A stretch of 64,000 bases of DNA from an uncultured Thermoplasmata archaeon (GCA_963708255.1 CAVPSE010000002.1:373842-437841); one strand, 5' to 3'. Shown: positions 4,563 to 57,982, numbered from the stretch's first letter. Numbers and translations are program-made. Notes: a model not told the origin generated them from the sequence alone.

Positions 4563-6030
<1,468 letters not shown>

Positions 6031-6059
6031 AAGAGCGCCCTACGGGGCGACTCACGGAT

Positions 6060-6096
6060 CGATCCTAAGCGGACGAACGGATCTGGCTCTTCCTCC
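6060..6096 (+). promoter_or_regulatory. 3-prime half of the pre-16S processing helices
   Basis: The complement partners of 4458-4473 and 4517-4524 bracket the mature 16S, as expected for an archaeal bulge-helix-bulge processing stem. Confidence 0.7.
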
Positions 6097-6117
6097 ACCC
6101 ATCGGGTCCATCAACCC

Positions 6118-6123
6118 TTTTTT
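6118..6123 (+). terminator. Oligo-T tract downstream of the 16S gene (archaeal-type terminator candidate)
   Basis: A TTTTTT run in an otherwise GC-rich spacer. It lies about 90 nt after the 16S 3-prime end and just before the ribB TATA box. Confidence 0.5.
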
Positions 6124-6139
6124 GAGTAACTACGCTTAG

Positions 6140-6147
6140 TTTATAGG
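6140..6147 (+). promoter_or_regulatory. TATA box for the rib operon
   Basis: TTTATAGG lies 31 nt upstream of the ribB ATG (6171), which implies a leaderless or near-leaderless mRNA. Confidence 0.55.
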
Positions 6148-6170
6148 CCGACCCACTGCTGTACGGTCCG

Positions 6171-8685
<2,515 letters not shown>

Positions 8686-19592: not shown

Positions 19593-20945
19593 TTGGACTA
19601 TCTCAACGGCTGGACGATCGCGCTCGTCCTGGTCATCGCCTACGCGGCCGTCGTCTACGGGCTGTACCGGTGGGGTCGGATCGGCCCGGACCGGTCGCTC
19701 AGCCTCCTGGGCCCCGCGCTGATGATCAAGACCCGGAAGGGTCGCGGGATGCTCGATGTGATCGGGCGATACCGCCGGTTCTGGAGCGCGGCCGGCGACC
19801 TCGGGATCCTCCTCGCGGCCCTGGCGATGGTGTCGGTCGTGGTGGTCCTGTGCCTCGACGCCGTCATCGCGCTCCGGGTCCCTGCCAGCGCCGCCCCGCC
19901 GGTCTCCGAGGCGCTCGGCATTCCGGGGATCAACCCGATCATTCCCGTCGGATACGGGCTCGTCGCGCTCATCGTAGGGGTCGTCCTGCACGAGCTGAGC
20001 CACGGGGTCGTGGCCCGTTCCCAGAAGATCGGGGTGAAGAGCCTCGGGATCCTCTGGTGCGTCATCCCCATCGGGGCGTTCGTCGAGCAGGATGACGCCG
20101 AGATGAACGCCGCCCCCCGGCGGAGCCGGGACCGTGTCGCCGCCGCCGGCGTGCTCGCCAACTTCGGCCTTACGGTCGTCTTCTTCCTGCTCCTCGCCGC
20201 CTCGGTCTCCTCCACGGTCCAGCCGAACGCGAACGGCGCCGGGATCGCCTACGTGGTCCCCGGCACGCCGGCCGCGAACGCCAGCCTCGCGGTCGGGGAC
20301 ATCATCACGGCGATCAACGGGACCCCGACCACCACCAACCAGGCGGTGATCGATATCCTCAGCAACGGAACACCGGGGCAAGCGGTCTCGCTGACCTACT
20401 ATGATCCCGGGGTCGGTTCGAGCGTGACGAAATCGATCACCCTCACCTCCCTCGCGTCGTACACGAACGTCTCGGCGGACCGGACCAAGGGGTTCCTCGG
20501 GATCTCGCTCCTGTTCCTCACCCCCACGGCGCTCAAGGGGATCCTGGTCGCGCCGTACGGCGCCCCGCAGGGGCCCCTGGTCGGCGGGACGTTCTGGGTG
20601 GTGCTTCCCCTCGCCGGGATCGAGCCGGTCCAGGGGAGCCTTACGAACTTCTATCATCTCAGTGGGCCCCTGGCGGGCCTCGGCACCGGCGGGTTCTGGG
20701 TCTACGCGAACCTTCTCTACTGGCTCGCCTGGATGAACTTCCTTTTGGGACTCTCCAACGCCCTTCCCCTGATCCCACTGGACGGCGGCCTGCTGTTCCG
20801 GGATTTCTCCGCGACCGTCGCATCGCGCCTCCGGAAGGGCTGGGACGCGGCCCGCCTCGACCGCTTCTCCGGCCAGGCGACGGTCGTCGCCTCCCTGCTC
20901 GTGGTGTTCCTGATCGTATGGCAGTTCATCGCGCCCCATCTCTAG
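19593..20945 (+). CDS. Site-2 protease family (M50) intramembrane metalloprotease with a PDZ domain
   Basis: Contains HELSHGVVA (HExxH within a TM span), a PDZ-like insert (GIAYVVPGTPAANASLAVGDIITAINGTP), NALPLIPLDGG (the NxxPxxxLDG motif), and multiple TM spans. Confidence 0.88.
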   Translation: MDYLNGWTIALVLVIAYAAVVYGLYRWGRIGPDRSLSLLGPALMIKTRKGRGMLDVIGRYRRFWSAAGDLGILLAALAMVSVVVVLCLDAVIALRVPASAAPPVSEALGIPGINPIIPVGYGLVALIVGVVLHELSHGVVARSQKIGVKSLGILWCVIPIGAFVEQDDAEMNAAPRRSRDRVAAAGVLANFGLTVVFFLLLAASVSSTVQPNANGAGIAYVVPGTPAANASLAVGDIITAINGTPTTTNQAVIDILSNGTPGQAVSLTYYDPGVGSSVTKSITLTSLASYTNVSADRTKGFLGISLLFLTPTALKGILVAPYGAPQGPLVGGTFWVVLPLAGIEPVQGSLTNFYHLSGPLAGLGTGGFWVYANLLYWLAWMNFLLGLSNALPLIPLDGGLLFRDFSATVASRLRKGWDAARLDRFSGQATVVASLLVVFLIVWQFIAPHL

Positions 20946-22677: not shown

Positions 22678-23221
22678 CTACGGGGCCGGGCCCAAAAGAT
22701 AGTCGGTGACCCCCGGCTCCGCCAGCCAGTCGACGGTCCCGTACCGGCTCGGCGGCCGCCGTCGCAGCAGGTTCGCCACTTCCCGGGTGACGTCCTCGGG
22801 CCGTCGACCGGTGGTGTCCACCTCCCAGATCCGGGCGGCCCGGGCGGATCGCCTCGAGCAGGACGACATCGGTCGCCTCCGCCGCGACGTTCTCCTGGCG
22901 GTCGGCGGGGGTACCCCGCCCGGCCGCGGCCAGTCGGTGGCCCAGTTCCCGGGGGTCGCATCGCAGCACGACGACCTCCCGGACCGGGAGCAGGTGCGCG
23001 AGGTGGCCCACCAGGACGATCCGGTCCCCGAGGCGGGAGCTCCGGAGGGCTCGGGCGAGGGCGGAAAGATCGACCAGGACTTCGTTCCGCCGGCGGCGAC
23101 CGGCCCCGAGCGCGACGGCCAGGTCCCCGACCTCTACCGCCTGCCAGGAGGCCGGCAGTCCCCGCGCCACGGTGCTTTTGCCCGTTCCCGGCGTTCCGGT
23201 GATGGCGACCCGATGGGCCAA
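22678..23221 (-). CDS. Adenylate kinase isoenzyme 6 / Fap7-like P-loop kinase; one frame break
   Basis: The N-terminal part is VAITGTPGTGKSTVA (P-loop) ... VVVLRCDPRELGHRL ... ENVAAEA ... LLEAIR. It continues in ORF 22678..22869 (ARIWEVDTTGRRPEDVTREV...). The break lies in the C/G runs at about 22831-22847. The start is uncertain (TTG at 23221, 23260 or 23299). Confidence 0.65.
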
Positions 23222-23371: not shown

Positions 23372-26300
23372 ATGTTTGGAAGTTCAGCCGCCCCCCGTAC
23401 CGCACCCCCGCGCGCCGACCGGAGCTACCGCCGGAGCCTGGGGGCGTTCGTTATCGTGTTCGTGCTCGCCACCTCGGGGGTCCTCATCGCCGGATTCGGC
23501 AGCGCCTCGGCCGCCACGGTCGCTCCGGTCGGCCTCGCTTCCCCTCTGGCACCGTCCAACGCTCCGACCGGGATTCTCTCGGGCCCGGCCCTCCAGCAGG
23601 CCCCGCTCCATGTCCAGCCCGGCACCCCCCTCAACACCCTCTCGAACGTCACGGTGAACCATGTCGCCCCCCCAACCGACCCGTTCTCGTTCACCATCGG
23701 CTTCCAGATGCGCAACCAGCAGCAGCTGGAGCAGCTGGTCCAGGCCCAATCCTCCCCCGGCTCCCCCTTATTCCACCACTGGCTGACGCTCGATCAGGAG
23801 CGGGCCCAGTATGGTCCGGACCCGGTCGCCTACCAGGACTCGATCAACTACTTCACCTCCCTCGGATTCCAGGTCGAGACGAAGGGCCTCCTTTCGGTCT
23901 CCTTCACCGGGACCGTCGGCCAGACCGAGGGCGCGTTCCACACCACCCTCGACAATGTGAGCTACGGGAACGGCGCGAGTGGCGTGGTCAACGCCCAGCC
24001 CCTCTCTCTCCCCGCGCCGATCGCCCAGGGGACGGTCACGGTCAACGGCCTCAACCCGGCGGGGAACGCGAAGCCGACCTCCTACGTCGACCCCGCGGCG
24101 ATGCTCGACTTCGGGAAGCCGCAGCCGATGGCCAACGGGATCACGCCGCTCTCCCCCGTATCGATCCCCTTCGACGTAATCCAGGGGAACCTCTCGACCG
24201 TGTTCAACTTCAGTCAGGCCGGGTTCTTCTGGTTCGAGCACTTCTCCCTGAGCCAGAAGCGGACCGTCATCGACCAGATGATCACCCCCGGCTCCCTCGC
24301 CGTGATGTACAACGATAGCCAGCTCCTGAACCTGGGGTACAACGGCGACTCCACCGGCACTCCGATCACGATCGCGATCATCATGGCCGGCGGCATCAAC
24401 CCCGGCGATCTGCGGGACTACGCCTCCTTGGTGTGGAACAACCCGAACCAGATCATGAACCGACTGTCGACGGACCCGATCGACGGCTCGTTCACCACCA
24501 ACGGGACTCTGCCCTACACCGACGGGGCCTCTAGTGAGATGGCGCTCGACCTCGAGTTCTCCTCCACCCTGGCCCCGGCGGCCCACCTGCTGCCAACGTA
24601 CGGCCCGTGCCTCTGCACCAACGTCCTCGACGACGACTACGCGTCCCTCGAAAGCATGGCGAAGGCCCCGAACATTATCTCCAACTCCTGGGGCGGCTCC
24701 GAGGACACGTGGCCCGACCTATACGGCCCGTCGTACGACAACGCCCTCACCATGCACGACTACTTCGTCCTCCTCGACGCCCGGGGCTCCACCGTGATCG
24801 CCTCGAGCGGGGACGGCGGCGGGTTCGACACTGGCACGGGCATCCTTTCGGGCAGCTTCCCCGCGACGGACCCGTACGTCCTGTCGGTGAACGGCCTTCG
24901 GACGGTCGCCGCCGACGCCGCAGGGCAGTCGTTCGACACCACCACGGCCTACGGCCTGCTGAACGTCACCATCGGCGTCAACCCCCAGGCCCCGATCTCG
25001 AACCTGATCAACACCGCGGTCCACGCGGACCGCGCGGCGAGCATCGCGAGCCAATCCTACTGGTACGTCCCCTTCACGAACACGACGCTGACCAACGCGC
25101 CTCCCGAGGCATCGGGTGGGTTCGACACGAGCTACTGGTTCAACCAGAGCTGGTACGAGCACGGCTACAACATCCCTGACCTCGGACGGTCGCTGGGGAG
25201 CGGTGTCGCGGCGACGGCCGACTTCAACACGTCGATCTTCTTCGACGGAACCATGCAGTTCTTCTGGGGCGGAACGAGCTTCGCCTGCCCCGCCACCGCC
25301 GGCCTGTTGGCCGTGATCGAGGACTACCTCGTCGCCCACGGCAAGAGCGCCTACCTCGGCAACGGGAACGCGGTCGTCTACGATCTCTGGAACGCCTACA
25401 CGAACGGCAACCTAACCTACGACCCATTCTACCAGGTCACCAACGGGACCAGCTACTGGGGCAACTACGGGGTCGAGCACGGCTACGAGTTCCCCCCCGG
25501 TCAGAAGTTCCCGGTCAACGCCGAGAACACGACCACCTACGGGAACACCACTCCCGGCTGGAACCTCCCGACGGGGTTCGGCACGATCCTCGTTGACCGG
25601 TTCGCCATGGACATGCTGCAGCTCGAGAACATGCCCGGTACGTTCATGACCGTGAACGCTGCCGGGACGGCCTACGACGTGGGGGCCTGGGACTACATGT
25701 CCCTCAACCACACGTACTCGATCGACGTCAACACCACGAGCCTGATCGCCGCGAACAGCCCGACCGTAACGGTAGTCTTCCACCCGGAAACCGGCAGCCC
25801 GACGGCGATGCAGTTGCCGCTCACTCAGGTTCTGACCCCCGCCTCCGCAGAGAGGTTCAGCCTCAACACAGGGGTGTTCCCATTCACGAGCCCCGGGTTC
25901 GTCGTGTTCGAATTCGGGGACGCCTCCAACGCATCCCTCGGGTTCGCCTACGATTGGATCTCCTACCCGGTCCCGACGGGAACGCTCAACGTCACGGTGG
26001 TCCAGCCGACGGCTGGCACGGTCCTGAGCGGCTACCCCGAGTTCAACATTTGGCCCGGCGGGTTCTTCGCCCCGGTCTCGACCAACCCAAGCTGCTGCAC
26101 GAACGTCCCGAACACGTTCACCGTCCACGTGACGCTGAACGGGCAGGGCGTCTACGATGCCCAGGTGACGGCGACGGTCCCCAGCACCGCGGTCCTCGCG
26201 TGGCAGGGGTCCCGGGCGTACTCCGCGACCAACTCGTACGGGAACCCCCACGTAACGGCGACGACGACCCTCTCGTGGAGCTATACGAACGAGACCGGCT

Positions 26301-28341
26301 ACGCCGTGGTCTACACGTGGAACCTGGTCACGCCGACCGTCTACACGGTCGTGGCGTCGCTGGGCAGCTCTTTGGCGACGACCACCTACAACACGACCCC
26401 CGGCATCAACATCAAGACGACCGACGTCGGCGGCGGGCGGTACTCGGAGTTCAACACGATCTCCTACATCCTGACGAACCTGCGCCAGTCGAACAGCACG
26501 GCGAACCAGGCGATCTGGGCGCCGAACTCGCTCAACCAGTCCGGATACTACGACCTCCTGTACGGATGGCAGGGAGAGATCCTACCGGTCAGTACCAATT
26601 ACTACAATGGGTCGGTCGCCGGCGGCATCCACGTCTGGCTCGGATACTACGACTCCGGCGGGCAGAACAAGTTCTACACCTACGAGAGCTCTGGGGGCAT
26701 CGTCGGGGTCACCAACACCTCGGGGACGGCCAACAACACCGACCTCAACACGGGGACCGCCTCCATCTTCATCCCGGACAACCAGTCCGATTCGAACTGG
26801 TTCGTCATCCCAGGTGGGGCGAGCTTCGGTATCTCTGCGGTCGCTGCGTCGTACCCCGGCCAGTACAACCGGACGTTCGGCTACTCCGAGAGCTGCTTCA
26901 ACACCTACCCCAACCCCGTCCGGCCGGTCGCGGTCTGCCAGGTACAACGACTCCGAGCAGCGGAACTACACCGCCACTCCGATCATCGTGCTAGCGAACC
27001 CCGTCAACGTCACCACCCAGACCACGGCGGGGACGGCCCGGAGCTTCTTTGGGCTCGGCTCTCAGATCGCCCTCAACTTGAACGTCCAGCTCCCGGGAAA
27101 TGACCCATTCCTGAACGGGATCGGGACGAACTGGGACCCGTCCACGGAGCACGTCGTGACGGCGGAGGCCTATGTGGACAATGTCGCGGTAGCGAACCTG
27201 ACCCCGCCCCCGCAACCGTCGTGGCAGAACTTCACCATCCACGACAACCTCACCCAGTCGTTCGCTTCCGGGGTCCACACTCTCGAGGTGATCGTGCAGG
27301 ACTCCCTCGGCCACATCTTCACGCGAAGCCACACGTTCATCGTGGGGAGCATCGACCTCCTCGACCTGAACCTCTCGGACACCTACACGGTCCTCCCGTA
27401 CGACCTCAACTGGAGCTACTCCATCCCCTCGAACCTGATCGACAACCACACGTTCAGCCAGTCGATCGAGATCCAGTACCGAGGCGCCCGGCTGCGGGAC
27501 CAAGGCGGACCCGTGCCCGGTCGCGGTGAACCTGACGCTCCGCATCAAGGACGGGGTCGCGAACTACGGCCAGAACCTCAACCTGACGCTGCTCAACATG
27601 CAGCACTTCTACTCCGGTGCGGCCGAGCTGCCCCCCGGTCAGTATGCGGTGACCATCTGGCTCAATGCGAACCATTCGGGGAGCTTGGCGACGTCGGTCT
27701 CGACGTACTTCGTCTTCAACCCGCTCCAGGGCTCGATCAATGGGCCTTCGGAGAACGCGACCATCCCCGTGGGGAACGTGACGCTCTCGTACGCCTACTC
27801 GGGCGAGTACATCCAGAACGCAACCCTGTTCGTCTACCCCGTGGGCTCCACGTCCGCGGTCTTCTCGGCGGGCGCGTTCGTTCCGGGGATCGGCTCGAGC
27901 CTCCGGGGCGGCGCGGCGACGTGGACGGCCGTCACACCGGGAAGCTACGAGGTGGTCCTCGCGATCGGCGCCCCGTACGGGCATCTGAACGCCACCGCGA
28001 ACATCACCGTCGCGCTGACCACCGGGGCCACGTACATCAACCAGACCCACCCGAGCGGGGTCCTGGCCGGGGCGGCGGCGGCGACGACGGCCACGGTCCT
28101 GGCGATCATCGCGGCGATCATCGGCCTTCTACTGGGGTTGGTGGCAGCCCCCGCGCTCCGAGGTACCCCGAAGGGTTCCCAGCCCGTAGCGGCCGGCGCG
28201 GCGGCTCCCTGGCAGGAGGACCACGGCAAGCCCGGGACCACGTCCTCGGGCAAGCCCACGTGCCCGATCTGCCATGAGGCGTTCGAGACCGACTTCGCGC
28301 TCAAGCAGCACGAGAAGATCAGCCACGGGATCGAAGAGTAA
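23372..28341 (+). CDS. Giant secreted S53 (sedolisin-type) peptidase/glycoprotein with a C-terminal TM anchor and a cytoplasmic C2H2 zinc finger; two frame breaks
   Basis: Begins MFGSSAAP with an anchor (LGAFVIVFVLATSGVLIAGF), followed by a pro-kumamolisin-like domain (LFHHWLTLDQERAQYGPD ... SVSFTGTVGQTEGAFHT). S53 motifs are SSEMALDLEF, IASSGDGGG and WGGTSFACPATAGLLA. I counted more than 40 N-x-S/T sequons by eye. The TM is ATVLAIIAAIIGLLLGLVAAP and the tail is PWQ...KPTCPICHEAFETDFALKQHEKISHG. The gene is assembled from ORFs 22706..27103, 26607..28277 and 27526..28341, with breaks at 26941-26945 and 27476-27480. Confidence 0.85.
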
Positions 28342-28427
28342 CCAGTTCGTCCGGCCGGGCGGCCACGGCAGCCGCCCCGCGGATAAGCTCGCCCGACGGT
28401 GCGTCGTTCAACGGCTGTTCGCGAGAC

Positions 28428-28436
28428 ATTTAAGTA
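28428..28436 (+). promoter_or_regulatory. TATA box for the downstream glycoprotein gene
   Basis: ATTTAAGTA directly abuts the first ATG (28437). This favours the ATG at 28458 (MRRTSGMRSG...) as a leaderless start. Confidence 0.45.
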
Positions 28437-28457
28437 ATGCAAGTCGTGCCGGGGTCC

Positions 28458-29678
28458 ATGCGCCGAACTTCGGGTATGAGGTCCGGGACGATTGCGTTGG
28501 CCGCCGTGTTGGCTTTCACGGCCATGGCCGTGTTTGTCGGCATTGTCGGGATGGGGGGCTCCAGCGCCTCTCACCCAGTGGCCGCTCCCCTGAAGGCGCC
28601 GCACGCGGCTTTCCACGAGGCGCCGGCCGCCGGCAACGCTACGGCCTCGGTGGCCCTGACGAGCACGCCGCCCTTGTACATCCAGTTGCCGTACACCATC
28701 TCCTTCACCGTGACTGTCTCGAACGTGGTCTGGACCACGCTGAACGGTTCCCTGAACGTCCAGATCCGCGACGTGGCCAGCATCTGCCAGGGGGGCCTCG
28801 GTCTCAGTCTGCAGTGCCCGGCCGTCGTGAACATCAGCCTCAACAGCTCCCTCAAGAACGGCGTCAGTGACTACTCGACGACGATCACGACGACCAACCT
28901 CACCGCGCCCCAGTTCCGCGAGAGCTGCCCGGCGGGCGGTCCCCCGTGCACCTACGACAACGGGATCTTCCCGAACGACCAGTACCAGATCTTCGTCTTT
29001 GCATCCGCGAACAATTCGTTTTCGGCCGACACGGGCGTAGCGGAACAGACGGGCTACCTGATCACCTCGAACCCCACCGCCAGTCTCCTCGCGCCGACCG
29101 CGGGTAACTCGGTCTCGACCGGGAACGTGAGCGTCGCGATCAGCTATGGCGGCAGCTACGTGACGGGCGCGTCGATCGCCATCTACCCCGGCAGCACGAG
29201 CACGGGCTCCCCGGTCTATACCCAGAGCCTGTTCGCTCCGGGCGCGGGGACCCAGACGGTCGTGGCCGCCGCTCCCTGGGCGGTCGCGACCTCGGGCGCC
29301 TACCTCGCGGTGATCAACGTCACCACGCCGTACTCCACGACGTTCTTCAGCACCAGCCTCACCGTCGTGAGCGCCGGCGGCGGGATCGTCTACGTGAACA
29401 CCACGCAGTACCAGAACACCACCGGTGGCGGCGGCGGCAAGATCTTCGGTCTCACGACCCAGGTCGGAGGCACGGTCCTCCTCGTCGCGGGCCTGATCAT
29501 CGGTATGATCGTGGCGTTCATGCTCGGCATGATGATGTGGGGTGGCGCCCCCAAGTCCGGGAGCCCGGCCCAGCCGTGGCAGTCGAAGCCCACCAACGAG
29601 TGCAGCGTCTGCCACCAGACGTTCCCGACCGAGCAGGAGCTGAAGGACCACGCGAAGAGCGCCCACGGGATGTCCTAG
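28458..29678 (+). CDS. Membrane-anchored glycoprotein with a cytoplasmic C-terminal C2H2 zinc finger, paralogous to the stalk/TM/tail of the preceding S53 protein
   Basis: From ORF 28437..29678. The N-terminal anchor is IALAAVLAFTAMAVFVGIVG, the ectodomain is sequon-rich, and the TM is VLLVAGLIIGMIVAFMLGMMMW. The tail is PAQPWQSKPTNECSVCHQTFPTEQELKDHAKSAHG. The Ig-like segment GNVSVAISYGGSYVTGASIAIYPGSTS aligns with GNVTLSYAYSGEYIQNATLFVYPVGSTS in the upstream gene. Confidence 0.7.
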   Translation: MRRTSGMRSGTIALAAVLAFTAMAVFVGIVGMGGSSASHPVAAPLKAPHAAFHEAPAAGNATASVALTSTPPLYIQLPYTISFTVTVSNVVWTTLNGSLNVQIRDVASICQGGLGLSLQCPAVVNISLNSSLKNGVSDYSTTITTTNLTAPQFRESCPAGGPPCTYDNGIFPNDQYQIFVFASANNSFSADTGVAEQTGYLITSNPTASLLAPTAGNSVSTGNVSVAISYGGSYVTGASIAIYPGSTSTGSPVYTQSLFAPGAGTQTVVAAAPWAVATSGAYLAVINVTTPYSTTFFSTSLTVVSAGGGIVYVNTTQYQNTTGGGGGKIFGLTTQVGGTVLLVAGLIIGMIVAFMLGMMMWGGAPKSGSPAQPWQSKPTNECSVCHQTFPTEQELKDHAKSAHGMS

Positions 29679-32312: not shown

Positions 32313-32609
32313 TCAGCGGGCGGGGGCCGCCGGCGCCTCTTCCTTCGCGGGGCGGCTCGGGGCGCGCTTGACGGAGACCCGCTTCGGGAAGTACTTCAGG
32401 AGCACGACGTCGTTGACCGCCGTCACCCACCGGTAGGGCACGTTGACCGGCTTGCTCTCCTCCACTAACAGCGGGCTGGATTCGGCGACGTAGAGACCGT
32501 CGATCTTGGCGCCGTCGACATCGACGACGACATTGTCGACCTCTCCCAGGAGGCGTCCATCGGGCGTGTAGATCTGCCGCTCCAGGAGTTCCGTCATCTC
32601 GACCAGCAT
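32313..32609 (-). CDS. PRC-barrel domain protein
   Basis: The 98-aa internal-start portion of ORF 32313..32927. The sequence is MLVEMTELLERQIYTPDGRLLGEVDNVVVDVDGAKIDGLYV ... VPYRWVTAVNDVVLLK, a typical small archaeal PRC-barrel layout. Confidence 0.65.
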   Translation of the reverse strand: MLVEMTELLERQIYTPDGRLLGEVDNVVVDVDGAKIDGLYVAESSPLLVEESKPVNVPYRWVTAVNDVVLLKYFPKRVSVKRAPSRPAKEEAPAAPAR

Positions 32610-32677
32610 GGGGTGCGCTTCCGTCGTCGGCAACGGGCCGACCCCCTCATATTCCTTTGGTCCGACTGGCGGGGTCG

Positions 32678-34469
32678 TTAGGGGGTCGGCGCTTCGTCGG
32701 TGGGGACGGGCGCGGCCTGCTTCACCTGGGCCCCGTAGAGCACCCGGAGCTCGTCGATGGTCGTGGCGTCGGTGGGTTTCTTGTCGGCCCGGAACCTGCC
32801 CGTGAACCTCGGGAACCGTAGGGCGAACCCGACCCCGGCCCGGATCCGTCCCATCCCCGCGTGGTGGATGGGGCTGAGCGAGAGCTCCGCGCCCCGGACC
32901 TCGAGGACGACCCCCGGCGTGAACCACTGATCCGGGGTGAGGCCGGTCACGACCCCGGGGGGCCGCTCCGAAACCTCGTACGGCTTCAGCATCTCCGGAA
33001 GCCTCGCGAGGGTGGCGTCATCGAACCCGCTACCGACCTTGCAGAACGACTCGAACCGGTCCTGGGCGGGGTCGTAGGCGGCCATCAGGAGCGCGCCCCA
33101 CCGACCGGCCCGTCGGCCGCGGCCGACGAACCCTCCGACGACGACCCCGTCGATCGAGTCCGCGAGACCGACGGTGTATTCCCGCTTGTACCTGATCCAC
33201 CAGAAGCCCCGGGCCCCCGCGCGGTACCGGCTCTCGTCCGAGAGGGACTTCGCCATGACCCCCTCGCCCCCGGCCGCGATCGACTGGTCGAAGAACGACT
33301 GGGCCTCCTCGACGCTCGACACGCGCTGCTGTTCGGCGAGCCGCACCCGCTCGCTCGGGACGACCAGGTCGCGGAGCCGCTCCCGCCGCTTCGGGAGGGG
33401 CTCATCGATCACCGGCCCGTCCGGGGCGAGCAGCACATCGAACAGGAACAGGCAGACCGGGATCTCGGTCTGGATGCGCTCGAGATCGTACTTTCGGCCT
33501 CGGCGGCGTGACACATCCTGGAACGGGCGGATCTCGTCGGTCTCCGGATCGATCGGGACGCACTCCCCCTCGACGATCGCGGGCCGGGCCTTCAAGGCCG
33601 TCGGCAAGGCGACCGACAGCTCCGGGAACTGGGCGGTGATGTCCTCGAGCCGACGGGAGAACAGTCGTGCGGGGCCGTCGGCCGGGACATGGGCCTGGAC
33701 CCGGAGACCGTCGTACTTGTACTCGAGCGCGGCCTCCCCCTCCATCCGCTTGAGCAGCTCGGGGAGGTCCTTCACCCGCTCCGCGAGCATGGGCCGGATC
33801 GGCCGTCCGACCTCGAGGTGGATGACCGAGAGGCCCTCCAGCCCCCCGTCGGCGAGCGCCGAGGCGACCAGCGCGAGGTCACTGCAGAGATTGAACGCCG
33901 CCTCGATCCTCTCGCGACCGTACCTGGTGCCGCCGGCCCACCGCTCGGCGAGAGCGTCGAGGATCGTCATCTCACGGACGCCGAGCCGAAGGCGCCCGAG
34001 CACGAATCGGGCCACGTACCGGGCCTCCTCCGGGGAGCAACGCGCGACGAGACCGGCAAGGAGCTGGATCTTCGCCTCCTGAGAGCCCTCGCCCGAGGCG
34101 GCAGCGATGGCGCGGAGCCCCTCGAATAGCTGACCGACCTCGAGCGCAGGGGCCGTGGTCGGGAGTCGTCCCCGCCCGAGCTCCTCGGCTGTCGTTCCCA
34201 GATCGCCGGACGCCCTCAGGTGGGCGGCGACCTCCTCTTCCGGCCGACCGAGGGCGATCGCGACGGACCGCCGGGCCAGGGAGTCGGCAACGCCCAGCTC
34301 GACCCCGCCGTACTCGGGGGCCAGCAGTCCCTGCGACAGGTAGAGGACCTCGGGCAGTTCGGCGCGAGGTACAGGTCCGGAAGAGGTCGGCGAGCAGGGT
34401 CCGGGTCTCGAGCCGCTTGCGGGTCGCCTCGATCTTCGAGTAGACCGCGACCAGGTCAGCGAACCGCAC
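32678..34469 (-). CDS. lig: ATP-dependent DNA ligase; one frame break in the N-terminal DNA-binding domain
   Basis: Contains EYKYDGLRVQAH (KxDG adenylation site), FLFDVL, EGVMAK, WIRYKREY and RFPRF. The N-terminus is VRFADLVAVYSKIEATRKRLE...LADLFRTC (frame of ORF 33972..34529), then ...RAELPEVLYLSQGLLAPEYGG...EARYVARFVLGRLRLGV in the frame of ORF 32678..34015. The break is at GGTAC 34368-34372. Confidence 0.9.
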
Positions 34470-56075: not shown

Positions 56076-57568
56076 TCGGGCCGCCGCGCGGCTCTCGGAG
56101 TCGACCCGGGAGGATGCGGCCCTGTTGCCGCACGACCTGTGGGGCTCCCTCGCGCATGCCCGGATGCTCGGCCAGACCGGGATCATCCCGGCCGCGTCCG
56201 CCCGCCGGATCGAGGCAGGTCTACGGGGTCTTGCTCGGGAGGCCGCGCGGGGCCGGTTCCCCCTCGACCCGGCGCTCGAGGACGTCCACCTGAACGTCGA
56301 GGACGCGCTGACCCGACGGATCGGTCCGGACGGCGAACGTCTCCACACGGCCCGCAGCCGCAACGACCAGGTGGCGACGGACCTGCTCACGTACCGGCCG
56401 GGACGCCTTGCTCGCCCTCGAGCTCGCCACGCTCGCCGTCGCCGACGCGCTCTCGACGGCGGCCCGGGGTCCAGACGGCCGCAACGTCGTCGATGGCTGG
56501 ACCCACCTCCAGCCGGCCCAGCGACTCTACTGGGGCCAGATCCTCGGCACCCACGCGCTGCGGTTCGTGCGGGACGCGGAGCGGTTCTCCGCCCTCCGTC
56601 GACGATCCGATCGGTCGCCCCTCGGGAGCGGCGCGATCGCGGGGAGCTCATTGCCGATCGACCGGCGGCTCACCGCGCGGCTCCTCGGCTTCGGGTCGCC
56701 CACGGCGAGTTCGCTGGACGCGGTCTCGGACCGGGACGCGGCGGCCGAGACCCTCTTCGGTCTCGCCCTCCTCGCGACCCACGCCTCCGCGCTCGCGGAG
56801 GAGCTGGTCCTCGGTTCCATGCCCGGAGGTCCAACGGGTCCATCTCGCCGACGAGTTCGTCACGACGAGCTCGTTGATGCCCCACAAGCGAAACCCCGAT
56901 CTCGCGGAGCTCGCCCGGGCGGAAGCGTCGCCGGCGGTAGGGCGGCTCGTCAGCCACCTCTCCCTGCTGAAGGGGCTCCCCGCGGGGTACCAGCGAGACC
57001 TCCAGGTCGGCAAGCCGCTGCTCATCGAGGGGGTGGACCGGGGTTTGGGGGTTCTCGAGGTCCTGCGGGGGATGGTCGCGTCGGCGAGGTTCCTCTCACC
57101 TCCGTCCTCCGCTCCGGGGACGACCGGGTCCGTCGAACTGGCGGACGCCCTGGTCCGGGCAGGCGTCCCCTTCCGGTCCGCTCATGCCCGGGTCGGCCGT
57201 TGGCTATCGGCCCGGGAGAAAGGGCCCGGAGCGCTCCCTCCGAGAGGGAGATCGTCCGAGAGTTCCCGGAACTTGCCGCGGCTGGGTTCCACTGGCCGGC
57301 CCCCCACGAGGAGCCGGAGCGTCGACGCTCCCAGGGAGGGAGCTCCTGGCCTCAGGTCGAGCGGCTCCTCGGGGAGGTGGGCCGGCGATCCCAGAGCGCC
57401 CGGGCCGAAGCGGAACAGGAGATCCGCCGGCTCGCCCGGCTACGGACCGCGCTCGGGGCGTACCCGCCGGCGTTCCTGGGCCAGTTCACGTCGCGAGGGG
57501 TTCCGGCTCCGGCGCCCGCGGGGCGCGGGGAGCGGCGGTCGACGGCACGGCGGCGGCCTGCCCGGTGA
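56044..57568 (+). CDS. argH: Argininosuccinate lyase; three or four frame breaks, C-terminal end uncertain
   Basis: The pieces read WGSLAHARMLGQTGII ... HTARSRNDQVATDLLTY | GRDALLALELATL ... THLQPAQ ... SPLGSGAIAGSS ... | ...TSSLMPHKRNPDLAELARAE ... GYQRDLQ ... FRSAHARVG ... | ...ERRRSQGGSSWPQVERLL. The breaks lie at GTACC 56391-56395, at about 56824-56830 and at about 57225-57245. Confidence 0.88.
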
Positions 57569-57851
57569 GCGCCCCCTGCAAGAGGACAGACCGCTCCCGG
57601 GCGCTCAGGCCGGGGTGCTGTCCGTAGAGGTGGATCTCGAGACTGGCCCGGGTCGCGTACTCGCGCTGGCACACGGGGCATAGGAAGACCTGCGCCTCGC
57701 CGGTGAACCGGGCGCATCGGCAGTTCATGACGTGGCAGGGCATCGGGGTGGATCGGTCCCGGGGCCGGCTGAAGTGGCGCCGCAATCGACCATCCTGAGG
57801 GGCGAGGAGGTAGTGGCTTGCCCGGAGGTGGTCGCAGCCCTGGCACGGCAT
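57486..57851 (-). CDS. Small Cys/His-rich protein with a classical C2H2 zinc finger
   Basis: Within ORF 57486..57977, the ATG at 57851 is preferred because the TATA-like AATATAT (57976-57982) abuts the ORF's TTG start. The sequence is MPCQGCDHLRASHY...PCHVMNCRCARF...LCPVCQREYATRASLEIHLYGQH, which fits C-x2-C-x3-Y-x5-L-x2-H-x4-H. It is convergent with argH and overlaps its 3-prime end. Confidence 0.6.
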   Translation of the reverse strand: MPCQGCDHLRASHYLLAPQDGRLRRHFSRPRDRSTPMPCHVMNCRCARFTGEAQVFLCPVCQREYATRASLEIHLYGQHPGLSARERSVLLQGALTGQAAAVPSTAAPRAPRAPEPEPLAT

Positions 57852-57975
57852 CAGCCTCAGATGGCGGCGCTGTGTGACCACGGTTCGGGGCTCCCTTCGA
57901 GGGCCGGCGCCCGTGACCACGTCGACCCGACGACGCAGGCGGGGTGGGGCCCTTCTCCCGCCCTTGCCACGGCTC

Positions 57976-57982
57976 AATATAT
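57976..57982. promoter_or_regulatory. AT-rich TATA-like element between divergent genes
   Basis: AATATAT is the only AT-rich block between the zinc-finger gene (minus strand) and ACT-domain paralog 2 (plus strand). Confidence 0.4.

What the first reader, a model, noticed from the sequence alone, without database searches (positions are those of the whole stretch)
28080..29678. Classical C2H2 zinc fingers as the cytoplasmic tails of two adjacent membrane-anchored surface glycoproteins
The giant S53 protein ends with a TM helix (ATVLAIIAAIIGLLLGLVAAP), then ...APWQEDHGKPGTTSSGKPT-CPICHEAFETDFALKQHEKISH-GIEE (finger at 28261-28326). The next gene ends with a TM helix (VLLVAGLIIGMIVAFMLGMMMW), then ...PAQPWQSKPTNE-CSVCHQTFPTEQELKDHAKSAH-GMS (finger at 29601-29666).

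Both fit the eukaryote-style TFIIIA consensus exactly: C-x2-C-x3-F-x5-L-x2-H-x4-H. They also share a PWQ motif between the TM helix and the finger. The Ig-like stalk preceding the TM helix is homologous between the two proteins, so the stalk-TM-PWQ-finger module has been duplicated as a unit.

C2H2 fingers are uncommon in prokaryotes. I am not aware of them being described as the intracellular tail of single-pass, heavily glycosylated extracellular proteins. The topology (large ectodomain, one TM helix, a roughly 45-aa nucleic-acid-binding-type tail) resembles membrane-tethered transcription factors, or a sorting or cytoskeleton-docking signal.
Basis: partly seen in the sequence, partly recalled or inferred. 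Interest (0 to 1): 0.8.

Follow-up and report, generated by a model that had tools for sequence, protein, structure and literature searches.

The report
Zinc-finger tails on archaeal surface proteins
Two neighbouring surface proteins of an acid-soil archaeon (a giant acid protease and a smaller Ig-like protein) each end in a membrane-spanning helix followed by a short intracellular tail with one classical C2H2 zinc finger, an undescribed architecture conserved across the whole order, whose finger looks built to bind a protein rather than DNA.

Summary
Both C-x2-C-x3-F-x5-L-x2-H-x4-H motifs sit where stated (28261-28326 and 29601-29666), 4 and 3 residues before the stop codons, each 21-46 residues after a C-terminal transmembrane helix.

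They are not chance. 34 of 35 homologues of the 413-aa protein keep the finger, as do about 118 cluster representatives (type A). 21 orthologues or copies of the S53 protease gene keep their own version (type B).

All 41 genome loci come from Thermoplasmata MAGs, several of them published Lutacidiplasmatales genomes. The gene pair occupies the same housekeeping neighbourhood in all of them.

The finger is the best-conserved part of the protein (66% identity against 28% for the ectodomain). AlphaFold predicts a beta-beta-alpha fold. Glycosylation-site distribution, flanking charges and the acid-protease ectodomains all place the tail in the cytoplasm.

The fingers are acidic (net charge -1.3 and -0.9, against +2.25 for DNA-binding control fingers). 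The transmembrane helix carries a near-invariant GxxxG. I therefore read the module as an oligomerising membrane anchor whose zinc knob docks an unknown cytoplasmic protein. A released transcription factor is less likely.

The window's S53 gene has two 1-nt insertions that orthologues lack. These are probably assembly errors.

No description of this architecture was found in the literature searched.

The parts
23372..28341 (+). Giant membrane-anchored S53 (sedolisin/kumamolisin-type) peptidase gene, about 1650 aa. It is read in three frames in this window because of two 1-nt insertions.
   Evidence: Pro-kumamolisin activation domain, E = 5.9e-21. Kumamolisin match with the catalytic motifs SEMALDLE, SNSWGG, SSGDGG and GGTSFACP. 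It aligns end to end with the intact 1689-aa orthologue in L043 at about 80% identity, in frames 3/1/2.
23438..23494 (+). N-terminal hydrophobic signal/anchor segment of the S53 protein (LGAFVIVFVLATSGVLIAG), preceded by basic residues.
   Evidence: Hydropathy scan and motif coordinates.
26937..26941 (+). Frameshift 1: an extra G (TGCCAGGTAC, against TGCCA-GTAC in the orthologue).
   Evidence: DNA alignment with L043; frame change seen by tblastn.
27477..27481 (+). Frameshift 2: an extra C (CAGTACCGAGG, against CAGTA-CGAGG in the orthologue).
   Evidence: DNA alignment with L043; frame change seen by tblastn.
27526..28089 (+). Membrane-proximal beta-sandwich/stalk region of the S53 protein, homologous to the ectodomain of the next gene.
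   Evidence: BLASTP, 28% identity, E = 4e-24, against residues 133-413 of the 413-aa protein. Weak PKD-domain hit.
28090..28152 (+). C-terminal TM helix of the S53 protein, with GxxxG (IGLLLGL).
   Evidence: Hydropathy 2.78. GxxxG is present in 21 of 21 type B tails.
28204..28215 (+). APWQ linker motif. The family form is [PA]-W-[EQD]-E.
   Evidence: 21 of 21 type B tails keep [PA]W.
28261..28326 (+). Type B C2H2 finger CPICHEAFETDFALKQHEKISH, followed by the conserved acidic C-terminus GIEE (28327-28338).
   Evidence: Family consensus is C-x-[VI]-C-[HKQ]-[ED]-x-F-[ES]-T-x-[FY]-A-L-x-Q-H-x-K-I-x-H-G-I-E-E, in 21 tail sequences from 20 fetched loci plus the window (19 distinct).
28429..28437 (+). 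TATA-box-like TTTAAGTAA in the 95-nt spacer between the two genes. It suggests the second gene has its own promoter, if translation starts at ATG 28476.
   Evidence: Sequence. The database entry for the window's own protein (P0001, 400 aa) corresponds to a start at 28476. The promoter role is inference only.
28437..29678 (+). Type A gene: 413-aa (or 400-aa) single-pass surface protein. It has a signal/anchor helix, two beta-sandwich domains, a stalk, a TM helix, a linker and a C2H2 finger.
   Evidence: AlphaFold model: helix 17-34, beta domains 69-311 with pLDDT above 90, disordered 316-336, helix 341-368, finger 387-410. Foldseek returns only macroglobulin/Ig-like sandwiches. 35 homologues.
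29457..29540 (+). TM helix of the type A protein, with invariant G352 and G356 (GLIIG).
   Evidence: GxxxG is present in 114 of 118 family members.
29571..29582 (+). QPWQ linker motif. Q379 and W381 are invariant in the 53-sequence alignment.
   Evidence: 118 of 118 keep [PAQ]W.
29601..29666 (+). Type A C2H2 finger CSVCHQTFPTEQELKDHAKSAH, followed by GMS and the stop codon.
   Evidence: C, C, F, H and H are 100% conserved and L/M is 100% in 118 sequences. Predicted beta-beta-alpha fold with pLDDT about 84-90.

Best explanation
The two genes encode cell-surface proteins of a Lutacidiplasmatales-type Thermoplasmata archaeon that share a duplicated membrane-anchor module. One is an S53 acid protease of about 1650 aa. 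The other is a 413-aa protein with two beta-sandwich domains.

The module consists of:
- a sequon-rich stalk;
- one TM helix with a GxxxG packing motif;
- a basic/Trp juxtamembrane turn;
- a flexible P/A/S/T-rich linker of 21-46 residues containing an invariant P-W;
- a single classical C2H2 zinc finger at the extreme C-terminus.

Shown or strongly supported: the fingers are real, cytoplasmic and the most conserved part of the protein. They come in two long-lived paralogous flavours. Type A sits on the Ig-like protein and its thermopsin- or DUF4397-bearing relatives. Type B sits on the S53 giant.

Inferred: the TM helices pack through GxxxG into homo- or hetero-oligomers. The zinc-stabilised acidic knob, held a few nanometres under the membrane, docks a conserved cytoplasmic protein that is still unknown, such as a cortical, cytoskeletal or assembly factor. 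This would fix, cluster or position the surface protease complex. The finger would therefore act as a protein-binding module, as some eukaryotic single C2H2 fingers do, and not as a DNA reader.
For: Reality and conservation:
- 34 of 35 full-length homologues (33-100% identity) end in ...GRMMWG..PAQPW...NECSVCHQ[ST]F.TE.ELK[DE]H.K.AHGM.
- An exhaustive profile search of 1.84 billion representatives gave 309 hits at E <= 1e-10. About 80 of the top 150 are single-stretch, full-module, C-terminal matches.
- Adding the and homologues gives 119 family members of 67-1198 aa.
- 21 type B tail sequences, from 20 fetched loci plus the window, have their own consensus.
- Pairwise identity rises from 28% in the ectodomain to 56% in the TM helix and 66% in the finger.

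Fold:
- AlphaFold predicts beta-beta-alpha after the TM helix.
- The Foldseek matches listed are almost all C2H2 fingers, the close ones at 0.6-1.7 A over 25-29 residues. They include the ADR1 H-x4-H finger and the Rab5-binding EEA1 finger.
- The tail profile hits PDB C2H2 proteins down to E = 6.5e-8.

Topology:
- Sequon density is 3.5 per 100 aa before the TM helix and 0.1 per 100 aa after it.
- Net charge is +1.75 in the 15 residues after the helix and 0.03 in the 15 before it.
- 98 of 108 Met-starting members have an N-terminal hydrophobic segment.
- The ectodomains are S53 and thermopsin acid peptidases.

Protein binding rather than DNA binding:
- Finger net charge is -1.3 (type A, range -3 to 0) and -0.9 (type B). 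966 control fingers from poly-zinc-finger hits average +2.25, and only 10% of them are <= -1.
- The helix contact positions are T/S, E/A/D, E, E/A/D in type A and T, F/Y, A, Q in type B.
- Non-structural surface residues are strongly conserved, and differently so in A and B.

Oligomerisation: GxxxG is present in 114 of 118 type A and 21 of 21 type B helices.

Core role: there is one type A locus per genome in 41 genomes, always in the same M50-PriL-...-SHMT-Csl4-ligase neighbourhood.
Against: - No partner has been identified and no conserved neighbouring gene suggests one. The neighbours are housekeeping genes.
- Two lineages have lost the type A finger while keeping the TM helix and P-W (L040/P0033 and L041/P0040). 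The finger is therefore not indispensable.
- Zinc binding, topology and glycosylation are all predictions.
- The Pfam zf-C2H2 models stay below their gathering scores.
- A single acidic finger could still bind RNA or DNA with help from a partner.
- GxxxG is common in TM helices generally.
- In this window the S53 copy may be a pseudogene.
Confidence: 0.5

Rival explanations
1. Membrane-tethered signalling factor. The ectodomain is shed, and an intramembrane protease then cuts the Gly-containing TM helix. The candidate protease is the M50/PDZ site-2 protease encoded three to four genes upstream. The roughly 45-aa zinc-finger peptide is released and regulates transcription, directly or by binding a regulator. 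This would couple extracellular proteolysis or peptide supply to gene expression.
For: - An M50 peptidase with PDZ domains lies at 19593-20945 and holds the same relative position in related genomes.
- The TM helix has invariant glycines.
- A conserved G-[LFV]-[ST] motif lies about 8-10 residues outside the membrane and could be a shedding site.
- C2H2 fingers are typically found in transcription factors.
Against: - The M50 gene is part of a block of housekeeping genes whose order is conserved as a whole, so its proximity is not specific.
- The tail has a single finger, acidic net charge, no basic flank and an acidic recognition helix.
- Single fingers need basic extensions or partner fingers for specific DNA binding (established knowledge, e.g. 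GAGA factor, Ros).
- There is no evidence of cleavage.
Confidence: 0.12
2. Passive topogenic plug or rivet. The finger has no specific partner. A small, quickly folding zinc domain simply keeps the C-terminus in the cytoplasm and makes the single-helix anchor of a large glycosylated ectodomain harder to pull out.
For: - The domain is tiny, terminal and close to the membrane.
- Only one or two basic residues follow the helix.
- Two lineages manage without the type A finger.
- No partner gene is evident.
Against: - A plug would need only the zinc ligands and the hydrophobic core. Yet surface positions (S-V between the cysteines, T at -1, E at +3, K between the histidines, the G-M or G-I-E-E ends, and the linker P-W) are conserved over a depth at which the ectodomain falls to 28% identity.
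- These positions are conserved differently in the two paralogues.
Confidence: 0.15
3. Direct nucleic-acid tether. The finger binds chromosomal DNA or an RNA (for example its own mRNA or ribosomes) at the membrane.
For: The profile of the finger matches DNA-binding C2H2 arrays. An archaeal-virus C2H2 protein, AFV1p06, binds DNA (PMC3541406).
Against: Net charge is acidic, with E/D at the base-contacting helix positions, a single finger and a neutral P/A/S/T linker. Control DNA-binding fingers average +2.25.
Confidence: 0.07
4. C-terminal sorting signal. A sortase-like enzyme such as an archaeosortase removes the helix and tail and lipid-anchors the ectodomain.
For: The module is C-terminal and shared by several secreted proteins. 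Some members have P-G-F or P-G-L about 8-10 residues before the helix.
Against: - Known sorting signals end a few basic residues after the helix. Here a tail of 46-71 residues with a folded, conserved domain follows.
- No PGF-CTERM or other sorting-signal model in NCBIfam hits the proteins at E <= 1.
- The pre-helix motif is not conserved as PGF.
Confidence: 0.05
5. The CxxCH in both tails (CSVCH, CPICH) is a c-type haem attachment site on the outside of the cell, not a zinc finger.
For: Both window tails contain CxxCH. Weak hits to the Geobacter CxxxxCH/CxxCH multihaem model (E = 0.01-0.1).
Against: - The His after the second Cys is present in only 65% of type A and 53% of type B fingers. The rest have G, K, Q or N, while both distal histidines are 100% conserved.
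- Topology indicators place the tail inside.
- The predicted fold is beta-beta-alpha.
Confidence: 0.01

Closest known systems
Classical (TFIIIA/Zif268-type) C2H2 zinc fingers, Pfam zf-C2H2 clan
   Same: Exact C-x2-C-x3-F-x5-L-x2-H-x4-H pattern. Predicted beta-beta-alpha fold superposing on solved fingers at about 1 A (1paa, 2drp). The tail profile cross-hits eukaryote-type poly-finger proteins and PDB fingers.
   Different: There is one finger only and no TGEKP-type linker. The net charge is acidic. It sits at the cytoplasmic end of a single-pass archaeal surface protein. It scores below the Pfam gathering cut-offs.
Single C2H2 fingers used for protein binding, e.g. the EEA1 N-terminal finger that binds Rab5-GTP (PDB 3mjh)
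   Same: An isolated C2H2 finger acting, by my inference, as a protein-docking knob next to a membrane. 3mjh is among the structural matches (TM-score 0.72-0.77 normalised to the target, rmsd 1.6-1.8 A).
   Different: There is no sequence relationship beyond the fold. EEA1 is a soluble eukaryotic tether. No GTPase or other partner is known here.
C2H2 proteins of archaeal viruses (AFV1p06, PMC3541406; double-finger protein PDB 2wbt)
   Same: Eukaryote-type C2H2 fold in the archaeal world. 2wbt appears among the fold matches.
   Different: Those are small, soluble, basic DNA-binding proteins of crenarchaeal viruses. Here the finger is fused to a membrane anchor of cellular surface enzymes and is acidic. 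No viral contig carries the module.
CdpC, the haloarchaeal zinc-finger membrane anchor of FtsZ1 (bioRxiv 10.64898/2026.07.16.738847)
   Same: A precedent for an archaeal, membrane-associated zinc domain that binds a cytoskeletal protein rather than nucleic acid.
   Different: CdpC has zinc ribbons (C3H and C4) and binds the membrane through an amphipathic helix. It is entirely cytoplasmic and is not homologous.
Membrane-anchored acid peptidases of acidophilic archaea (S53 sedolisins, A5 thermopsins)
   Same: The ectodomains are S53 or thermopsin (P0077). These are the peptidase families reported as prevalent extracellular enzymes of Lutacidiplasmatales (PMC9287336).
   Different: That paper's main text does not contain the word 'zinc', so the finger tail is not described there. 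The anchor module is the new element.
SlaA/SlaB-type two-gene surface layers of Sulfolobales (from my own knowledge, not tested)
   Same: An adjacent pair made of a protein of about 1500 aa and one of about 400 aa with a C-terminal TM anchor. Both are predicted to be heavily N-glycosylated.
   Different: There is no sequence or fold match. Here both partners are membrane-anchored, and the large one is a protease. Lattice formation is unknown.

Membership tests
Classical C2H2 zinc finger | Ligand spacing C-x2-4-C-x12-H-x3-5-H | tested here: met
   Both window tails, and 118 type A plus 21 type B sequences, have C-x2-C-x12-H-x4-H with 100% conserved ligands.
Classical C2H2 zinc finger | Conserved hydrophobic core (aromatic at C2+4, Leu at H1-3) | tested here: met
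   F is 100% and L/M is 100% in type A. F is 95% and L/M is 100% in type B.
Classical C2H2 zinc finger | Beta-hairpin plus alpha-helix (beta-beta-alpha) fold | tested here: met
   AlphaFold predicts it, with pLDDT about 84-90 in the finger. Foldseek superposes it on solved fingers at 0.6-1.7 A, although Foldseek E-values are not significant for so short a domain.
Classical C2H2 zinc finger | Score above the curated Pfam threshold | tested here: not met
   Best scores are 15-24 bits against cut-offs of 25-27, with E = 3e-5 to 2e-2. This is common for single divergent fingers. The profile-to-PDB search gives E = 6.5e-8.
Classical C2H2 zinc finger | Binds one Zn(II) through Cys2His2 | not testable with these tools
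   Needs metal analysis of the peptide.
DNA-binding C2H2 transcription factor | Basic surface, two or more fingers or a basic flank, and polar/basic residues at helix positions -1, 2, 3, 6 | tested here: not met
   One finger. Net charge -1.3 (A) and -0.9 (B), against +2.25 for 966 control fingers. Helix positions are T, E/A/D, E, E/A/D in type A and T, F/Y, A, Q in type B. The linker is neutral.
C-terminal protein-sorting signals (PGF-CTERM/archaeosortase and relatives) | Signature motif, TM helix and a short basic cluster at the very C-terminus, recognised by curated models | tested here: not met
   The tail after the helix is 46-71 residues and contains a folded domain. No NCBIfam sorting-signal model hits.
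c-type cytochrome haem-binding site | Invariant CxxCH on the extracytoplasmic side | tested here: not met
   The His at that position is present in 65% (A) and 53% (B) only. The tail is predicted to be cytoplasmic.
Substrates of regulated intramembrane proteolysis (site-2 protease) | Single TM helix with helix-destabilising residues, an effector domain on the cytoplasmic side, a site-2 protease present, and demonstrated cleavage | tested here: inconclusive
   Glycines in the helix and an M50/PDZ gene nearby in conserved synteny. The synteny is generic and cleavage cannot be tested.
Peptidase S53 (sedolisin/kumamolisin), for the giant protein | Pro-kumamolisin activation domain and the catalytic Glu, Asp, Asp, Ser motifs | tested here: met
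   PF09286, E = 5.9e-21. Aligns to kumamolisin with E-x3-D, SxSWGG, GDxG and GGTS conserved. The frame is interrupted twice in this window.
Ros/MucR-type prokaryotic zinc finger | Globular domain of about 58 aa with a basic region; hit to the Pfam ROS_MUCR model | tested here: not met
   No such hit among the Pfam results at E <= 1. The predicted domain is a minimal 25-aa beta-beta-alpha.

The most novel reading that the evidence does not exclude
The tail is the output end of an archaeal transmembrane signalling pathway built on a eukaryote-type zinc finger. After ectodomain shedding, possibly by the surface proteases themselves, the syntenic M50/PDZ site-2 protease releases the finger peptide. 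The peptide then reprogrammes gene expression. This would be a Notch/SREBP-like relay in an archaeon, linking extracellular protein degradation to the cytoplasm.
Probability: 0.1. Interest if true: 0.85.

Novelty: new variant of a known kind. Interest (0 to 1): 0.55.

Why it matters
C2H2 fingers are the emblematic eukaryotic DNA-binding domain, and few have been studied in archaea. Here a classical finger is a lineage-wide, strongly conserved cytoplasmic tail on extracellular acid proteases and an Ig-like surface protein. It is found throughout an abundant but uncultured order of acid-soil archaea.

This matters in three ways:
- It defines an unannotated family. All members are currently labelled 'hypothetical protein'.
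- It gives a concrete handle for finding what lies under the membrane of these archaea: the finger is a ready-made bait.
- It adds a clear prokaryotic case of a C2H2 finger probably used for protein docking rather than DNA binding.

It also bears on how the peptide-scavenging machinery of these soil archaea is held at the cell surface.

Tried and rejected
- A word-indexed profile search with the tail alignment returned only six short or partial proteins and missed the known family, so it was uninformative. The exhaustive HMMER search replaced it.
- P0041, a 51-aa stand-alone protein with a similar finger, looked like a possible soluble relative. It sits among bacterial response-regulator genes and was dropped.
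- P0173, a 672-aa protein with a type B tail and no Pfam hit, looked like a new ectodomain. It is a fragment of the S53 giant.
- Clustering the ectodomains to count independent fusions gave one single-linkage cluster plus one singleton among the type A set. The module is therefore not spread over many unrelated ectodomains. I found only the beta-sandwich family (with or without thermopsin or DUF4397) and the S53 giant.
- Foldseek on the full 413-aa model returned only generic macroglobulin/Ig-like sandwiches and no functional clue.
- NCBIfam has no model for the proteins.
- A scan of viral contigs found nothing.
- The genes inserted between the type A gene and SHMT in some genomes differ from each other and are lineage-specific, so they are not partner candidates.
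- Literature searches for membrane-anchored C2H2 fingers in archaea or Thermoplasmata found no description.
- The haem-c reading of CxxCH was considered and rejected.

Full report
**What is there**

The window has about 70% G+C and carries archaeal housekeeping genes. Each has a strongly hydrophobic helix, a short linker containing P-W-Q, then CPICHEAFETDFALKQHEKISH (28261-28326) or CSVCHQTFPTEQELKDHAKSAH (29601-29666). The stop codons follow 4 and 3 residues later.

A six-frame scan finds only three C-x2-C-x12-H-x3-5-H motifs in the window. Shuffles give 0.18 on average, and the stricter pattern with the F and L core residues gives none in 200 shuffles. The third motif belongs to an unrelated soluble protein at 57486-57977(-).

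**The two genes**

The first gene is a giant S53 peptidase.
- It has a pro-kumamolisin activation domain (E = 5.9e-21).
- It aligns to kumamolisin with the catalytic E-x3-D, SxSWGG, GDxG and GGTS motifs intact.
- In this window it has to be read in three frames.
- An intact 1689-aa orthologue (L043, about 80% identical) shows why. There are two single-base insertions: an extra G at about 26940 and an extra C at about 27479.
- The neighbouring AAA_18 gene carries a similar frameshift at about 22834, and the argininosuccinate lyase gene near 56-57.6 kb is split between frames.
- The most economical reading is indel errors in the assembly, although a recent pseudogene cannot be excluded.
- The tail is in frame with the stalk and TM helix, and it is present in every intact orthologue, so it is not a frame artefact.

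The second gene encodes a 413-aa protein, or 400 aa from the ATG at 28476. The AlphaFold model built on 53 homologues shows the following:
- an N-terminal hydrophobic helix;
- two confident beta-sandwich domains (residues 69-311, pLDDT above 90);
- a disordered stalk;
- a TM helix (341-368);
- a disordered linker;
- a beta-beta-alpha finger (387-410).

Foldseek finds only macroglobulin/Ig-like sandwiches for the ectodomain. The membrane-proximal 271 residues of the S53 protein align with residues 133-413 of this protein (28% identity, E = 4e-24). The alignment runs through the helix, PWQ and finger.

**Conservation and distribution**

- 34 of 35 homologues of the 413-aa protein (down to 33% identity) end in an almost invariant ...LLVVGLIIGMIVAL.LGRMMWG...PAQPW...NECSVCHQ[ST]F.TE.ELK[DE]H.K.AHGM.
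- An exhaustive HMMER search with the 72-position module profile against 1.84 billion representatives gave 309 hits at E <= 1e-10. The top 150 split into two groups. About 80 are proteins that match the whole module once, at their C-terminus. The rest are poly-finger proteins that match only the finger part. The second group shows how classical the finger is.
- A scan of one genome per prokaryotic species found 41 loci. All are in Thermoplasmata MAGs, and no genome gave two loci. Several carry the names of the published Lutacidiplasmatales genomes (AcS5-107, SubAcS15-31 and others).
- Gene order is conserved. The usual order is M50/PDZ protease, PriL, CDP-alcohol phosphatidyltransferase, AAA_18, then [S53 giant], [type A gene], then SHMT, Csl4, methyltransferase, PRC barrel and DNA ligase. 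In a few loci these flanking blocks lie on the other side.
- About half the genomes have the S53 giant. It always ends in its own tail flavour: TM helix with GxxxG...KPWEE..., C.[VI]C[HKQ][ED].F[ES]T.[FY]AL.QH.KI.HGIEE.
- In other lineages the slot holds one type A gene whose ectodomain also carries a thermopsin domain (P0077, 1198 aa) or DUF4397.
- Across 53 aligned type A proteins, mean pairwise identity is 28% in the beta domains, 44% in the stalk, 56% in the helix, 46% in the linker and 66% in the finger.
- Two lineages have lost the type A finger but kept the helix, the P-W and the type B finger.

**Is it a zinc finger, and on which side of the membrane?**

The ligands and the hydrophobic core are 100% conserved. 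AlphaFold predicts beta-beta-alpha. The structural matches listed are almost all solved C2H2 fingers, the close ones at about 1 A. The profile hits PDB fingers down to E = 6.5e-8. Pfam zf-C2H2 models hit but stay under their gathering scores. No NCBIfam model exists.

Both window tails contain CxxCH, which could suggest haem attachment. That histidine is present in only 65% (type A) and 53% (type B) of family members, so haem attachment is not the conserved function.

Four lines of evidence place the tail in the cytoplasm:
- In 119 members, N-x-S/T sequons occur at 3.5 per 100 residues before the helix and 0.1 per 100 after it.
- Net charge is +1.75 in the 15 residues after the helix and 0.03 in the 15 before it.
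- 98 of the 108 members that start with Met have an N-terminal hydrophobic segment.
- The ectodomains are acid peptidases, which work outside an acidophile's near-neutral cytoplasm (established knowledge; PMC9287336).

**How it most likely works**

The facts above are shown or strongly predicted. What follows is inference.

The finger is acidic. Net charge is -1.3 for type A and -0.9 for type B. For 966 fingers taken from the poly-finger hits it is +2.25 (sd 2.0), and only 10% of those are <= -1. The helix positions that read DNA in classical fingers are T/S, E/A/D, E, E/A/D in type A and T, F/Y, A, Q in type B. There is only one finger, and the linker is neutral and P/A/S/T-rich. This argues against direct nucleic-acid binding.

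Surface residues that are not needed for folding are nevertheless conserved, and conserved differently in the two paralogues. These include S-V between the cysteines, the lysine between the histidines, the terminal G-M or G-I-E-E, and the linker P-W. This argues for specific binding surfaces rather than a mere plug.

The helix carries GxxxG in 114 of 118 type A and 21 of 21 type B sequences, which suggests helix-helix packing.

My best reading is an oligomerising anchor module that holds acid proteases and their Ig-like companion at the cell surface. Its cytoplasmic zinc knob would dock a conserved but unidentified cytoplasmic protein. Precedents for zinc domains used this way include the Rab5-binding C2H2 finger of EEA1, which appears among the fold matches, and the haloarchaeal FtsZ1 anchor CdpC, which uses a different zinc fold.

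**Rivals**

- A site-2-protease-released signalling peptide is the most interesting alternative. The M50/PDZ gene is syntenic, but so is the whole block of housekeeping genes, and the finger does not look like a DNA reader.
- A passive plug explains the losses in two lineages but not the conserved surface.
- A processed sorting signal does not fit the long folded tail or the lack of model hits.
- Haem binding and chance are effectively excluded.

**Novelty**

Full-text searches found no description of a C2H2 finger as the tail of an archaeal membrane or surface protein. The Lutacidiplasmatales paper reports the S53 and thermopsin peptidases, and its main text does not contain the word 'zinc'. 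The databases name these proteins 'hypothetical'.

The fold is known; the architecture and its lineage-wide conservation are new. I therefore rate it a new variant of a known kind. It is of moderate-to-good interest and is limited by the unknown partner.

Noticed in passing
window 57486-57977 (-), finger at 57615-57680: A third C2H2 motif (CPVCQREYATRASLEIHLYGQH) lies in a small soluble Cys/His-rich protein with no TM helix. It has 47 homologues of about 90-165 aa at 52-99% identity in Thermoplasmata/Lutacidiplasmatales MAGs. One of them is labelled 'uncharacterized C2H2 Zn-finger protein'. It is a separate conserved C2H2 family in the same lineage and a possible DNA-binding regulator.
   Followed up: partly
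window 22681-23221 (-), break near 22834: The AAA_18 (adenylate-kinase-like) gene is split between two frames compared with its 180-aa orthologue in L043. As a result it reads through as one 432-aa ORF with the CDP-alcohol phosphatidyltransferase gene. This is another single-base indel within 6 kb of the two in the S53 gene, which suggests an indel-prone assembly.
   Followed up: partly
window about 56139-57683 (+): The argininosuccinate-lyase-like gene appears in at least two overlapping frames (ORFs 56408..57568 and 56139..57683 each carry part of the lyase sequence). This points to one or more further frameshifts.
   Followed up: no
L040 about 6001-6150 and L041 about 6001-6210 (also P0033, P0040): Two lineages have lost the type A finger. 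One has a degenerate remnant (SEPMSSSEQESKDHPKTPGM). The other has a Ser/Thr-rich tail instead. Both keep the TM helix, the P-W motif and the type B finger on the S53 gene. They are natural knock-outs that could be used to find co-lost partner genes.
   Followed up: partly
L047 6001-9597 (P0077), L020, L025: In some relatives the same genomic slot holds a single 1200-1430-aa gene, and there is no S53 gene. In P0077 (L047) this gene combines a thermopsin (A5) peptidase domain with the beta-sandwich stalk, TM helix and type A finger. The protease partner of the anchor module has therefore been exchanged during evolution.
   Followed up: partly
window 19593-20945 (+): An M50 site-2-type metalloprotease with PDZ domains lies three to four genes upstream. 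It keeps that position in related genomes (L027, L029, L036, L047). This may be only conserved gene order, but it is the obvious candidate if the tails are ever released.
   Followed up: partly
window 32313-32700 (-): A PRC-barrel protein gene lies in the conserved block downstream. In haloarchaea, small PRC-barrel proteins (CdpB1/2/3) are cell-division proteins according to the CdpC preprint. No link to the tails was tested.
   Followed up: no
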